The notes below the pieces were generated by a model that searched no databases, was not told the DNA's origin, and saw only the letters and a program-made list of their open reading frames with translations. DNA of 64,000 nt from Flavobacteriaceae bacterium (GTDB taxonomy: Bacteria; Bacteroidota; Bacteroidia; Flavobacteriales; Flavobacteriaceae), in the NCBI GenBank assembly GCA_003963025.1, contig RXJZ01000039.1, positions 3,249 through 67,248 of the forward strand. The letters run 5' to 3'. Made by a program: the position numbers and the translations under genes. Below, in pieces: positions 39,924-42,348 of this stretch (its first letter is position 1; each line of letters starts with the position of its first letter).

Positions 39924-41339
39924 TTATACTTTTTTCAATCCCATTTTTGAAGCTTTGTTCAAGACAAAATCCTTAGCAGCTTCGTATTCGTTTGGAATTT
40001 CGCCTTCTAAAATAGCTTCTTTAACCGCTTCTTTTAGAACTCCAATTTCTCTACAAGGTTTTAAACCAAATAATTCCATAATTTCTTCCCCAGAAATAGG
40101 TGGTTGGAAAACACGAACTCTATCTTTTTCTTCTACTTCTACAATTTTTTCTTTTACGATGTCGAAATTCTTGTGGTATTTCTGAAATTTCTTTGGATTT
40201 TTAGTCGTGATGTCGGCTTTACACAAGGTCATCAAACTATCAATGTCTTCACCTGCATCAAAAACCAAACGACGAACTGCACTATCGGTAACGATGTCCT
40301 CAGCAATTACAATTGGTCGCGAACTCATCGTAACCATTTTTTGCACGAATTTCATCTTATGATTCAACGGCATGTGCAAACGTTCAAATATTTTTTTGAC
40401 CATTTTTCCGCCTAAAAATTCATGTCCGTGAAACGTCCAACCTTGTTTTTTGTTGAATCTTTTGGTTGGTGCTTTTCCAATATCGTGTAACAATGCCGAC
40501 CAACGCAACCAAACATCATCCGTATTCGGACAAATATTATCTACAACTTCTAGCGTGTGATAAAAATTGTTTTTGTGTGTGTGACCCTCAACTTCTTCGA
40601 CATTATTTAAGGCCGTAAGTTCTGGTAAAATAATATCTAATAAACCTGTTTGGTACAAATGTAAAAATCCAATGGAAGGTTTTTCAGAAGCTAAAATTTT
40701 ATGCAATTCATCCACAATTCGTTCACCTGAAATGATGTTGATTCTATCTTTATTTTTGGAAATCGCCTCTAAAGATTCCGATTCGATTTCGAAATTCAAT
40801 TGCGTAGCAAAACGAATCGCACGCATCATTCGCAATGGATCATCGGAATACGTAATATCTGGATTTAAAGGTGTTTTGATGATTTTGTTTTTCAAATCTT
40901 CTACACCATTAAAAGGATCAACTAAATCACCAAAGTTTTCAGAATTCAATGAAAAAGCTAAGGCATTTATCGTGAAATCACGTCTTTCTTGGTCGTCTTT
41001 TAAGGTTCCGTTTTCCACTAATGGATTTCGGCTATCGTGTGTATACGATTCTTTTCGAGCACCCACAAATTCCACATCAATATCATCGTAGCGTAACATG
41101 GCAGTTCCGTAGTTTTTGAAAACTTGTACTTTTGGATGAAACGGAATTAACTCGGAAACCTTCAAAGCCAATTCAATTCCGCTACCAACGGCAACGATAT
41201 CGATGTCTTTTTTGTGGTTTCTGTTGAGTACTATATCGCGAACAAAACCACCAATCACATAGCATTCCAAGTTGAGTTCTTGTGCTGCTTGCGAAATGAT
41301 TTTGAAGATGTTATGTTCTAAATGTTGTTTGTAATTCAT
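39924..41339 (-). CDS. cca: CCA tRNA nucleotidyltransferase with HD domain
   Basis: GGFVRD..DIDI, RRDFTINA, DDPLRMMRA and LLHDIGK. Start set at MNYKQ (41339). Confidence 0.88.
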   Translation of the reverse strand: MNYKQHLEHNIFKIISQAAQELNLECYVIGGFVRDIVLNRNHKKDIDIVAVGSGIELALKVSELIPFHPKVQVFKNYGTAMLRYDDIDVEFVGARKESYTHDSRNPLVENGTLKDDQERRDFTINALAFSLNSENFGDLVDPFNGVEDLKNKIIKTPLNPDITYSDDPLRMMRAIRFATQLNFEIESESLEAISKNKDRINIISGERIVDELHKILASEKPSIGFLHLYQTGLLDIILPELTALNNVEEVEGHTHKNNFYHTLEVVDNICPNTDDVWLRWSALLHDIGKAPTKRFNKKQGWTFHGHEFLGGKMVKKIFERLHMPLNHKMKFVQKMVTMSSRPIVIAEDIVTDSAVRRLVFDAGEDIDSLMTLCKADITTKNPKKFQKYHKNFDIVKEKIVEVEEKDRVRVFQPPISGEEIMELFGLKPCREIGVLKEAVKEAILEGEIPNEYEAAKDFVLNKASKMGLKKV

Positions 41340-41345
41340 GTTATT

Positions 41346-41777
41346 ACCGCAGATTCGCAGATTTTTATTTTTTTGAAAGTGCAACTCTTTTGTGTTCAAG
41401 CGATACAGAATTAAAATTAACTAAAAGTGCTAATTCATTTCCTGAAACTTTCAAATAATTTAAACATTGATTGTAATGTGCATTGTTAAAACAATCGACA
41501 GTTTTTATTTCTAATATTATTTCGTTAAAAACTACAAAATCAGCATAAAACTTGTGTTTCAATACGGTGTTTTTATAGTTTACTACATATTCTTTTTCTC
41601 TTTCGTAGGGAATATTTGCTTGTTGGAGCTCAAATTCAATAGCATCTTTATAAACAATTTCAGAAAATCCTTTTCCTAAATTTTTATGGACTTCAAATAG
41701 AATTCCAATGATTTGGTAGGTTTTGTCTTTGTATAAAAAATCATCCATAATACTATTTTAATCTGCGAATCAGCGGT
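41346..41777. mobile_element. Candidate IR-bounded GxxExxY nuclease element
   Basis: ACCGCAGATTCGCAGATT (41346-41363) and AATCTGCGAATCAGCGGT (41760-41777) are 17/18 inverted repeats enclosing only the GxxExxY gene. Confidence 0.5.
41365..41748 (-). CDS. GxxExxY protein (PD-(D/E)XK nuclease superfamily)
   Basis: LGKGFSEIVY, ADFVV...IILEIK, Q.LNYLK and ALLVNF. Confidence 0.9.
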   Translation of the reverse strand: MDDFLYKDKTYQIIGILFEVHKNLGKGFSEIVYKDAIEFELQQANIPYEREKEYVVNYKNTVLKHKFYADFVVFNEIILEIKTVDCFNNAHYNQCLNYLKVSGNELALLVNFNSVSLEHKRVALSKK

Positions 41778-41781
41778 TTTT

Positions 41782-42348
41782 TTATTTGCGAATCACTTTT
41801 ACTTGGCTGTCTAAACCTAATTTAATTATAGTAGAAGGATTTTTGCAAACTTTATCGTGGTGCAAATTTACTACATAGTCCACACCTTTTATAATTTCGG
41901 GACTAATTTCTTTGAAAGTTTTTGGTGTAGGTTCTCCCGAAATATTTGCTGAGGTAGAAACCAATGGTTTTTTCATGCGTTCCATTAACTTAAAACAAAA
42001 AGGTTCGGTAACTATTCGAACTCCTAACGTATTATCTTCAGCCACAATATTTTTGGCTACATTTCGAGGATTGTCTAAAATTAAAGTGGTTGGTTTTTCA
42101 GATAAATCTAGAATTTGCCAAGCCACATCAGGAATTTCTTTGAAAACGTTATACATCATACGTTCGCCATTCATTAAAACAATCATACTTTTGGTTTCTT
42201 CACGTTGTTTTAAAGCATATATTTTTTTTACAGCTTCTTCATTAGTGGCATCGCAACCAATTCCCCAAACGGTGTCAGTTGGATATAAGATAATACCGCC
42301 ATTTTTTATAACTTCGAATGCGTTGTGAACTTCAGTGTTGATATCCAT
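41782..42348 (-). CDS. tsaC: L-threonylcarbamoyladenylate synthase (TsaC/YrdC/Sua5)
   Basis: YPTDTVWGIGCD, K.R and STSANISG. Confidence 0.88.
   Translation of the reverse strand: MDINTEVHNAFEVIKNGGIILYPTDTVWGIGCDATNEEAVKKIYALKQREETKSMIVLMNGERMMYNVFKEIPDVAWQILDLSEKPTTLILDNPRNVAKNIVAEDNTLGVRIVTEPFCFKLMERMKKPLVSTSANISGEPTPKTFKEISPEIIKGVDYVVNLHHDKVCKNPSTIIKLGLDSQVKVIRK

What the first reader, a model, noticed from the sequence alone, without database searches (positions are those of the whole stretch)
41346..41777. GxxExxY nuclease gene tightly enclosed by inverted repeats: candidate 432-bp nuclease-driven mobile element
Seen in the sequence: ACCGCAGATTCGCAGATT ends 1 bp from the gene's stop, and its 17/18 reverse complement lies 11 bp upstream of the ATG. 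Each arm is itself a tandem octamer, (CGCAGATT)x2. The unit fills almost the whole gap between two housekeeping tRNA-processing genes: 4 bp from the tsaC stop and 6 bp from the cca ATG. Established: GxxExxY proteins are roughly 130-aa PD-(D/E)XK-fold proteins, widespread and without an assigned function. Inference: the gene plus its periodic IRs is a minimal selfish unit with no DDE, HUH or tyrosine recombinase, slotting into operon junctions without disrupting expression. The nuclease may bind or cut the octamer arms, as RAYT does with REPs. No target-site duplication is evident.
Basis: partly seen in the sequence, partly recalled or inferred. Interest (0 to 1): 0.82.

Follow-up and report, generated by a model that had tools for sequence, protein, structure and literature searches.

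The report
Small nuclease gene nested in hairpin repeat
A small, well-conserved nuclease gene sits in the loop of a repeated DNA hairpin wedged between two housekeeping genes; it is an old insert that stays at this one site, and it resembles known nuclease-plus-repeat partnerships more than a jumping gene.

Summary
A 127-codon GxxExxY (PF13366) gene is enclosed by 18-nt inverted arms (17/18), each made of two CGCAGATT octamers, and the unit fills the tsaC-cca gap.

The arms are not private to this gene. They belong to a dispersed hairpin family: 23 arms at 13 intergenic loci here and 0-65 per genome in congeners, with 0 hits for the reversed control. Basal congeners have an 11-17 nt spacer, so the unit is an insertion, but an old one.

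- **Site fidelity:** its closest homologues lie at this same junction in 24 of 65 junctions read in the genus and in 5 other genera.
- **Selection:** omega is 0.03-0.13, like the flanks, and the arms are conserved to the letter.
- **History:** the cassette and flank trees conflict (AU p 1e-32 to 1e-62). Flanks show no co-conversion. Scars exist: a truncated gene, solo arms and nested remnants.
- **Against autonomous mobility:** no second-site copy, no target duplication, no excision product, hairpin-rich genomes without the gene, and four-helix-bundle genes in the same layout.

Best reading is a nuclease-repeat partnership like REP/RAYT or NTS/Ssn, built on a Cas4-like PD-(D/E)XK nuclease. I found it described in no paper. 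This scan has noted the same design on other DNA many times.

The parts
41346..41777 (-). Whole cassette: arm, GxxExxY gene, arm (432 bp)
   Evidence: The two closest species that lack the gene (L021, L023) match the flanks at 88-100% right up to the arm edges and share nothing inside them.
41760..41777 (-). Upstream arm (tsaC side), ACCGCTGATTCGCAGATT in the sense orientation; CGCTGATT + CGCAGATT
   Evidence: In the sister species G045 this arm is a perfect ACCGCAGATTCGCAGATT.
41365..41748 (-). GxxExxY / PDDEXK_3 gene, 127 aa, with an intact D70-E80-x-K82 nuclease core
   Evidence: PF13366 E 1e-34. TIGR04256 E 2.4e-38. Invariant residues G25 G27 E30 Y33 K52 D70 E80 K82. AlphaFold2 model pLDDT 94, with Cas4 as the nearest solved fold. 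Omega 0.03-0.13.
41346..41363 (-). Downstream arm (cca side), plus-strand ACCGCAGATTCGCAGATT = (CGCAGATT)x2 preceded by AC
   Evidence: This arm is identical in L005, L006, L007 and L014, although their GxxExxY proteins are only 77-98% identical to the window's.
41782..42348 (-). tsaC (Sua5/YrdC family), upstream host gene
   Evidence: PF01300 E 6e-47.
39924..41339 (-). cca (CCA-adding tRNA nucleotidyltransferase with HD domain), downstream host gene
   Evidence: PF01743, PF12627 and PF01966.
41779..41795 (-). Last codons of tsaC (…ATT CGC AAA TAA), which resemble the inner half of the arm (15/17)
   Evidence: Direct repeat D2. The same tsaC end is present in L023, which lacks the gene, so it is native sequence. 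Whether it acts as a target is unknown.

Best explanation
The 432-bp unit is a gene-in-hairpin cassette. A catalytically intact, Cas4/RecB-like minimal PD-(D/E)XK nuclease gene (GxxExxY) lies in the loop of an inverted repeat. The arms are two tandem CGCAGATT octamers and belong to a dispersed family of intergenic hairpins.

It was inserted into an originally 11-17 nt tsaC-cca spacer, but long ago. This gene-plus-arm lineage is bound to this one junction in the genus and in other genera of the family. It is kept under purifying selection as strong as its housekeeping neighbours, and it is occasionally lost, truncated, nested or replaced.

I read it as a nuclease-repeat partnership of the REP/RAYT or NTS/Ssn kind, not as a transposon.
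- **Shown:** the anatomy, the dispersed family, the insertion, site fidelity, selection on gene and arms, conflicting histories of cassette and flanks, and decay forms.
- **Inferred:** the nuclease recognises the octamer arrays sequence-specifically, probably when they fold in single-stranded DNA, and cuts at or beside them. Host repair of such cuts would then replace one hairpin or cassette with another at sites that already hold a hairpin. The same repair would spread or homogenise the gene-less copies.
For: Anatomy and family:
- Coordinates and arms.
- 23 arms with up to 3 mismatches at 13 loci, all intergenic, six of them starting 5-17 nt after a stop codon.
- Arm counts per genome run from 0 to 47 (up to 1 mismatch) or 65 (up to 2 mismatches) across 81 congeners. 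The reversed control is 0 everywhere.

Arms go with the gene:
- All 24 cassettes at this junction have arms matching 14-18 of 18.
- Arm type follows the protein clade: the CGC-arm clade has support 99/97 and the CGCAAATT subclade 96/97.
- Changes are concerted across both octamers and both arms: CGCAAATT x4, CGCTGATT, and CACTAAT in L138 and L140.
- The CACGAAT arm is nearly unchanged in five other genera, where tsaC is only 54-59% identical. That is more conservation than base pairing alone would need.
- Each of the four paralogues in this genome has its own arm family with gene-less copies.
- Genomes with 5 or more arms more often hold the cognate gene: odds ratio 14.7 (p 3e-4) and 9.1 (p 0.004). 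These are not corrected for relatedness.

The gene is functional:
- The catalytic residues are invariant.
- Omega is 0.03-0.13, against 0.05-0.13 for tsaC and cca.
- The nearest solved folds are Cas4 SSO0001 and Pcal_0546 and lambda exonuclease, all enzymes that act on single-stranded DNA or DNA ends.

Turnover at a fixed site:
- Basal spacers are 11-17 nt.
- Well-supported sister taxa differ in what occupies the spacer.
- AU tests reject congruence of cassette and flank trees: p 1.8e-62 and 1.9e-32, and within arm types 0.015 and 0.0024.
- Scars are present: a truncated gene between arms (L074), solo arms (L066, L076) and remnants of a CGC arm outside CAC cassettes (L013, L027).
- Gene-less hairpins stand where relatives have an ordinary terminator stem-loop, with the A- and T-tracts kept.
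Against: - No biochemistry exists. Binding or cutting of the arms by this protein is pure inference.
- Covariation of arm and protein is also what simple co-inheritance of linked DNA would give.
- G041 (98% complete) has 65 arms, but no gene lies between such arms, and its best homologue is 50% identical with different arms. G074 has the gene but only its own two arms.
- Three four-helix-bundle (PF05635) genes in this genome sit in the same kind of inverted-array frame without being nucleases. The frame therefore does not need a nuclease in cis.
- Synonymous divergence between cassettes is as saturated as between flanks. Across genera, GxxExxY identity tracks flank identity. Most of the history may therefore be vertical descent plus loss.
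- The clades tested by AU were named after the trees had been seen.
Confidence: 0.45

Rival explanations
1. Hairpin vehicle with passenger genes, like an intervening sequence. The inverted octamer arrays are the primary element: REP-like or terminator-like hairpins that work at the RNA level in termination, RNase III processing, or insulating the operon. Small genes such as GxxExxY or four-helix-bundle genes are cargo in the loop. Spread and replacement depend on host functions or an unidentified trans factor, not on this nuclease.
For: - Four-helix-bundle genes of the 23S rRNA intervening-sequence protein family sit in the same frame in this genome.
- Gene-less hairpins far outnumber gene-bearing ones, and they abound in G041 and G026 without a cognate gene.
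- Hairpins stand just after stop codons and take the place of ordinary terminators.
- The arms close the whole unit as an RNA stem.
- In G030 the two arms enclose a 2.9-kb insert carrying gmd and fcl instead.
Against: - Arm sequence, not only pairing, is conserved across genera, and it changes in concert in both octamers of both arms. That points to sequence-specific recognition.
- Every GxxExxY lineage has arms of its own, and no arm family was seen carrying two cargo types.
- The nuclease core is under strong purifying selection.
Confidence: 0.25
2. Gene plus arms is an autonomous selfish element that moves because its nuclease cuts at the arms, and the gene-less hairpins are its non-autonomous derivatives, as MITEs are.
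For: - The unit is discrete with exact edges.
- Cassette and flank trees conflict without any co-conversion of the flanks.
- Presence is patchy: 24 of 65 junctions in the genus and 6 of 250 genera.
- A truncated gene lies between intact arms in G003.
- Arm copy number swings widely between species.
Against: - No copy of this lineage is at any other site in 81 congeners or in the five other genera that hold it. A second paralogue lineage is likewise fixed at the miaB-sigma54 regulator junction.
- There is no target-site duplication.
- The metagenome contigs laid show no joint that links tsaC directly to cca.
- Interiors of the gene-less elements show no similarity to the cassette interior (p 0.05-0.7).
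- dS is saturated, so no recent transfer is visible.
- A PD-(D/E)XK nuclease cuts but does not join strands.
Confidence: 0.2
3. An ordinary, vertically inherited small operon gene. Its two flanking hairpin halves are REP-like repeats that happened to settle in the adjacent spacers.
For: Site fidelity, strong purifying selection, and divergence that parallels the flanks.
Against: - The arms frame all 24 cassettes at this junction and all seven other GxxExxY genes examined, always as one inverted pair flush with the ORF.
- Arm type tracks the protein clade.
- Cassette and flank trees conflict strongly.
- Basal lineages lack both gene and arms.
Confidence: 0.07

Closest known systems
REP / REPIN repeats with their RAYT gene (REPtron)
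   Same: A single gene for a DNA-cutting enzyme is framed by inverted copies of a short palindromic repeat. The same repeat is dispersed in intergenic DNA, mostly as gene-less hairpins or doublets. Different paralogues have their own repeat families.
   Different: RAYT is a Y1/HUH transposase that both cuts and rejoins single-stranded DNA. This protein is a 127-aa PD-(D/E)XK nuclease. The arms are tandem octamers, not a REP with a conserved GTAG head. Copy numbers are tens per genome, not hundreds.
Ssn family and NTS/SRM repeats (Chenal et al. 2025, PMC11893778)
   Same: Small stand-alone nuclease genes are often flanked on both sides by the hairpin-forming repeat that the enzyme cuts, and that repeat is also dispersed in the genome. 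Homologues have co-varying repeat variants. This is the best functional analogy.
   Different: Ssn is GIY-YIG (cd10448) and this protein is PD-(D/E)XK. Single-strand-specific cleavage and an effect on transformation are shown for Ssn and untested here. The paper does not report fidelity to one operon junction.
   Same: A small ORF lies in the loop of a long stem formed by inverted repeats, inserted into an essential transcription unit without inactivating it. PF05635 genes in this genome have the same inverted-array frame.
   Different: This unit lies between protein-coding genes, not in rRNA. Its cargo is a nuclease, and no RNA excision has been shown.
Free-standing homing endonuclease genes (intron-less homing, as for phage T4 seg and mob genes); recalled from my own knowledge
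   Same: A nuclease gene is wedged precisely between conserved genes. It is present or absent at the same site in relatives, passes through decay and loss, and its gene tree conflicts with the host tree.
   Different: The flanks show no co-conversion. The framing arms and the dispersed gene-less copies are not features of homing endonuclease genes. The same spacer is also occupied by many unrelated hairpin families.
Insertion sequences and their MITEs
   Same: Terminal inverted repeats and gene-less short forms that share only the ends.
   Different: There is no transposase and no target-site duplication. The gene-bearing form is never seen at a second site. Interiors of the dispersed short forms are unrelated to the cassette.

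Membership tests
GxxExxY / PDDEXK_3 (PF13366, TIGR04256) | Profile match above the curated cut-off over the full length | tested here: met
   PF13366: 119.8 bits against a cut-off of 22, covering positions 2-117 of 117. TIGR04256: 131.1 bits against a cut-off of 35.
GxxExxY / PDDEXK_3 (PF13366, TIGR04256) | GxxExxY motif plus the D...ExK catalytic core of the PD-(D/E)XK fold | tested here: met
   G27-F-S-E30-I-V-Y33, D70, E80 and K82 are invariant in 24 sequences. The model has pLDDT 94 with an alpha-beta restriction-endonuclease-like core, and the nearest folds are Cas4 and lambda exonuclease.
REPtron (RAYT + REP) | The gene encodes a Y1/HUH (IS200/IS605-like) transposase | tested here: not met
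   The only significant Pfam match is PF13366.
REPtron (RAYT + REP) | The gene is flanked by inverted copies of a repeat that is also dispersed in intergenic DNA | tested here: met
Ssn / NTS system | GIY-YIG nuclease of the cd10448 clade | tested here: not met
   The protein has the PD-(D/E)XK fold.
Ssn / NTS system | Site-specific cleavage of single-stranded DNA at the flanking repeat | not testable with these tools
   This needs purified protein and oligonucleotide substrates.
IS / MITE pair | Target-site duplication at the element ends | tested here: not met
   The flanks of the cassette and of 12 gene-less copies show no direct repeat.
IS / MITE pair | Short forms derive from the gene-bearing form by internal deletion | tested here: inconclusive
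   Interiors of the dispersed short forms are not similar to the cassette. At the home site, one truncated gene between intact arms (L074) and solo arms (L066, L076) do show decay in place.
Free-standing homing endonuclease gene | Co-conversion of flanking markers with the inserted gene | tested here: not met
   The last 40 nt of tsaC and the first 40 nt of cca are 88-100% identical to the gene-less sister species, against 65-78% to the cassette's relatives.
23S rRNA intervening sequence | Location inside a 23S rRNA helix, with excision from the RNA | tested here: not met
   The unit lies between tsaC and cca. No Rfam family matches the hairpins. RNA processing could not be tested.

The most novel reading that the evidence does not exclude
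GxxExxY nucleases are the active partner of a so far undescribed class of hairpin-targeting selfish cassettes. The enzyme cuts its own octamer-array hairpins in single-stranded DNA. Repair then copies a cassette or hairpin into sites that already hold a hairpin, including ordinary terminators. This would explain stem-for-stem terminator replacement, nested cassettes, exchange at one fixed operon junction without flank conversion, and genome-specific bursts of gene-less hairpins.
Probability: 0.2. Interest if true: 0.85.

Novelty: new variant of a known kind. Interest (0 to 1): 0.6.

Why it matters
PF13366 is a very common protein family, and I found no paper that assigns it a function. This locus ties the family to a specific DNA partner, the octamer-array hairpin, and so gives a concrete substrate to test.

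If the nuclease does cut its arms, it would be a third enzyme fold that pairs with dispersed hairpin repeats, after HUH (RAYT) and GIY-YIG (Ssn). It could also be a source of small sequence-specific nucleases for single-stranded DNA.

The replacement of ordinary terminator stem-loops by family hairpins suggests how such repeats shape intergenic DNA in streamlined freshwater genomes. That observation stands whatever the mechanism turns out to be.

Tried and rejected
- **Chance:** rejected on placement and recurrence, not on the pair alone, which occurs 0.33 times per simulated window.
- **Excision or an empty site in sequencing runs:** the four runs laid are contigs only. The arm-to-arm joints found are other hairpin loci, for example the C85 copy. 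The joints that skip 434-441 nt have unknown letters between them and belong to relatives with a different occupant. No joint links tsaC directly to cca.
- **Transcription:** an RNA-library contig bridges the cca start, the arm and the 3' end of the GxxExxY gene. DNA carry-over cannot be excluded, so this is not counted as evidence of transcription.
- **Deletion origin of the gene-less copies:** local alignment of four interiors to the cassette interior gave p 0.05-0.7 against shuffles.
- **Homologous replacement through the flanks, or classical homing:** no co-conversion tract was found.
- **Recent transfer:** dS of the gene is not lower than that of the flanks.
- **Hidden paralogy (an ancestral tandem of a CAC cassette then a CGC cassette, with differential loss):** the order of remnant arms in L013, L018 and L027 fits this. 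AU tests within each arm type still reject congruence (p 0.015 and 0.0024), so it explains only part.
- **Known RNA family:** only sub-threshold chance matches.
- **Solved relative by sequence:** none in the PDB.
- **Promoter and terminator scan:** nothing on the coding strand. The tool does not cover Bacteroidota promoters.
- **Parsimony counts on the 64-junction tree:** 20 changes for gene presence and 34 for occupant family. These are inflated by a poorly resolved tree, so I rely on the well-supported sister pairs instead.
- **Are the five cassette-bearing genera the nearest genera?** cca identity is flat at 68-74% across 250 genera, so this could not be resolved.

Full report
**Observation.** All three genes are on the minus strand: tsaC (Sua5/YrdC, 41782-42348), a 127-codon ORF (41365-41748) and cca (39924-41339). 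The inverted pair is at 41346-41363 and 41760-41777 and is 17/18 complementary. The arm next to cca is exactly (CGCAGATT)x2, and the other arm has one change (CGCTGATT). It is the only pair of that quality in the window. Such pairs arise 0.33 times per simulated window, so the case rests on placement and recurrence. As RNA, the arms form the closing stem of the whole unit (z = -4.6).

**The gene.** It matches PF13366 (E 1e-34) and TIGR04256 (E 2.4e-38) over the full length. In 24 homologues G25, G27, E30, Y33, K52, D70, E80 and K82 are invariant, so the GxxExxY motif and the D...ExK core are intact. An AlphaFold2 model (pLDDT 94.4) is closest to Cas4 (4ic1, 4r5q), then to lambda exonuclease and RecE. 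No solved relative is detectable by sequence. Omega is 0.03-0.13, the same range as tsaC and cca. The gene is functional and constrained.

**The arms are a dispersed family.** ACCGCAGATTCGCAGATT with up to 3 mismatches occurs 23 times in this 2.25-Mb, 84%-complete assembly, and the reversed control occurs 0 times.
- Most copies are 43-61 bp hairpins (C85 twice, C104, C131, C255, C262).
- Two are 106-bp forms (C87, C110) and three are solo arms.
- All loci are intergenic, and six copies begin 5-17 nt after a stop codon.
- Across 81 congeneric species the arm count runs from 0 (49 genomes) to 47 with up to 1 mismatch, or 65 with up to 2 mismatches. The control is zero everywhere.
- No Rfam family matches.

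**The junction across the genus.** I read 65 tsaC-cca junctions.
- Basal lineages have an 11-17 nt spacer, so anything larger is an insertion.
- Twenty-four junctions hold a GxxExxY gene, each between inverted arms matching 14-18 of 18.
- Arm types are CGCAGATT, CGCAAATT or CGCTAATT in one protein clade (support 99/97) and CACGAAT or CACTGATT in the rest. The CGCAAATT/CGCTAATT arms form a subclade (96/97).
- Changes are concerted across both octamers and both arms.
- The other junctions hold unrelated hairpin families built from other short tandem units: GATTTGAA, TGTCAAT, CAGTTTT and GTCATTTCGAC types.
- Scars are present: a gene truncated to residues 56-122 between intact arms (L074), solo right arms beside cca (L066, L076), remnants of a CGC arm outside CAC cassettes (L013, L027), nested duplicates (L031), and a 2.9-kb insert with gmd and fcl between the two arms (L077).

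**Histories of cassette and flanks.**
- On the flank proteins this genome groups with L021 and L023 (100% SH-aLRT on the full-length flanks, 99% on the 64-junction tree). Both lack the gene and carry two different hairpins. It then groups with genomes that hold CAC-type cassettes.
- Its GxxExxY protein instead groups with CGC-type cassettes whose flanks lie in other clades.
- AU tests reject holding the flank clade together on the gene data (p 1.8e-62) and holding the CGC clade together on the flank data (p 1.9e-32).
- Within each arm type the rejection is weaker (p 0.015 and 0.0024). All groups were named after the trees had been seen.
- The flanks are native up to the arm edges. The first 40 nt of cca are 100% identical to L021 and L023, against 65-70% to the cassette's relatives. 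Exchange therefore did not go through the flanking genes.
- dS between cassettes (0.9-2.0) is as saturated as between flanks, so no recent transfer is visible.

**Site fidelity.**
- All 24 hits of 58% identity or more that could be placed, among 81 congeners, are at this junction. One further hit (63%, G051:C28) lies on a fragmented contig and could not be placed.
- The next paralogue lineage (C92 type, 53-56% identical) is always at the miaB-sigma54 regulator junction.
- In 250 other genera of the family (one genome each), five have a homologue at 57-60% identity. All five lie directly upstream of cca, and four also have tsaC upstream. All five carry CACGAAT-type arms.
- Between genera, GxxExxY identity tracks flank identity, for example 84/81/85 and 70/61/76 for GxxExxY, tsaC and cca.
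- By cca identity the five genera are not a special nearest group. Either many losses or old same-site transfers are needed.

**Gene-less hairpins.**
- At orthologous sites relatives have an ordinary terminator stem-loop where this genome has a family hairpin, with the A- and T-tracts kept (C85 second copy, C131). One hairpin family can also replace another (C85 first copy). G060 shares the C131 copy.
- Their interiors are unrelated to the cassette interior.
- Genomes with 5 or more arms hold the cognate gene more often: odds ratio 14.7 and 9.1, uncorrected for relatedness.
- G041 has 65 arms but no gene between such arms. Its three GxxExxY genes have other arms.

**Other cassettes in this genome.**
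- Each of the four GxxExxY paralogues has its own inverted arms, with gene-less copies elsewhere.
- Three four-helix-bundle genes (PF05635) also lie between inverted arrays of short tandem units at gene junctions. The frame is therefore not exclusive to nucleases.

**Mechanism.** These points are shown: a discrete, old, site-bound cassette; arms and gene both under constraint; arm sequence conserved beyond what pairing needs, and changing in concert; turnover and decay at the site. I infer that the nuclease recognises the octamer arrays, probably folded in single-stranded DNA given its Cas4-like fold, and cuts there. I also infer that repair accounts for hairpin-for-hairpin replacement. The main rival is that the hairpin is the primary, RNA-level element and the gene is cargo. 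The gene-bearing form is never at a second site, has no target duplication and shows no excision joint. The enzyme class also cannot rejoin DNA.

**Comparison with what is known.** The layout matches REP/RAYT and especially NTS/Ssn (PMC11893778), but with a different fold. It also resembles ORF-bearing 23S intervening sequences. I found no paper describing this for PF13366. Earlier notes of this scan report the same design on other DNA in more than 2,000 genomes. Later checks there found the framing solid and the mobility claim unproven. The trees and scars reported here add to that record without settling it.

**Verdict.** This is a new variant of a known kind, a nuclease gene framed by its dispersed hairpin repeat. 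Interest 0.6.

Noticed in passing
G000:C144:32510-32824 (L133), G000:C64:2709-3017 (L134), G000:C282:3522-3836 (L135): Three four-helix-bundle genes (PF05635, the 23S rRNA intervening-sequence protein family) each lie between inverted arrays of short tandem units (GGTGATGGG-, TTAAGTA- and AAAGTAAA-type) at gene junctions. This is the same frame as the GxxExxY cassettes, with different arms.
   Followed up: partly
L105:4427-4471 against L115/L116; L109:1473-1515 against L127/L129: Gene-less CGCAGATT hairpins stand exactly where related species have an ordinary intrinsic-terminator stem-loop. The flanking A-tract and T-tract are kept, so only the stem-loop is swapped.
   Followed up: partly
L077 (G030:C25:28900-32600): In one congener the two arms at the tsaC-cca junction enclose a 2.9-kb insert. 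It carries gmd and fcl (GDP-mannose dehydratase and GDP-fucose synthase) on the opposite strand, plus a duplicated fragment of the tsaC 3' end. No GxxExxY gene is present.
   Followed up: partly
G041 (whole genome): This genome has 65 CGCAGATT-type arms with up to 2 mismatches, nearly all as short hairpins. No gene lies between such arms, and the closest GxxExxY homologue is only 50% identical with other arms. It is an orphan repeat family.
   Followed up: partly
G053:C4:130499-131370; G026:C1:732691-733123 and C2:41951-42733; G047:C69:67676-68316: The family hairpins also occur as head-to-tail tandem arrays, with periods of about 126, 130, 204 and 383 bp.
   Followed up: no
window 41779-41795: The last codons of tsaC (GTG ATT CGC AAA TAA) match the inner half of the adjacent arm at 15 of 17 positions. 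The same tsaC end is found in a gene-less sister species, so it is native. It may be chance, or it may be a reason why this spacer attracts the element.
   Followed up: partly
L106:1257-1483 (G000:C104): G045 has one 48-bp hairpin here. This genome has two copies of the hairpin, each followed by the same downstream 20-odd bases and separated by 131 bp. This is a local duplication or an insertion.
   Followed up: no
L031 (G047:C49), between tsaC and cca: This junction is nested and duplicated: outer ACCGCTAAT arms, two CACGAAT hairpins, a degenerate GxxExxY fragment, a second copy of the tsaC 3' end, and then an intact cassette.
   Followed up: no
I did not examine them.
   Followed up: no
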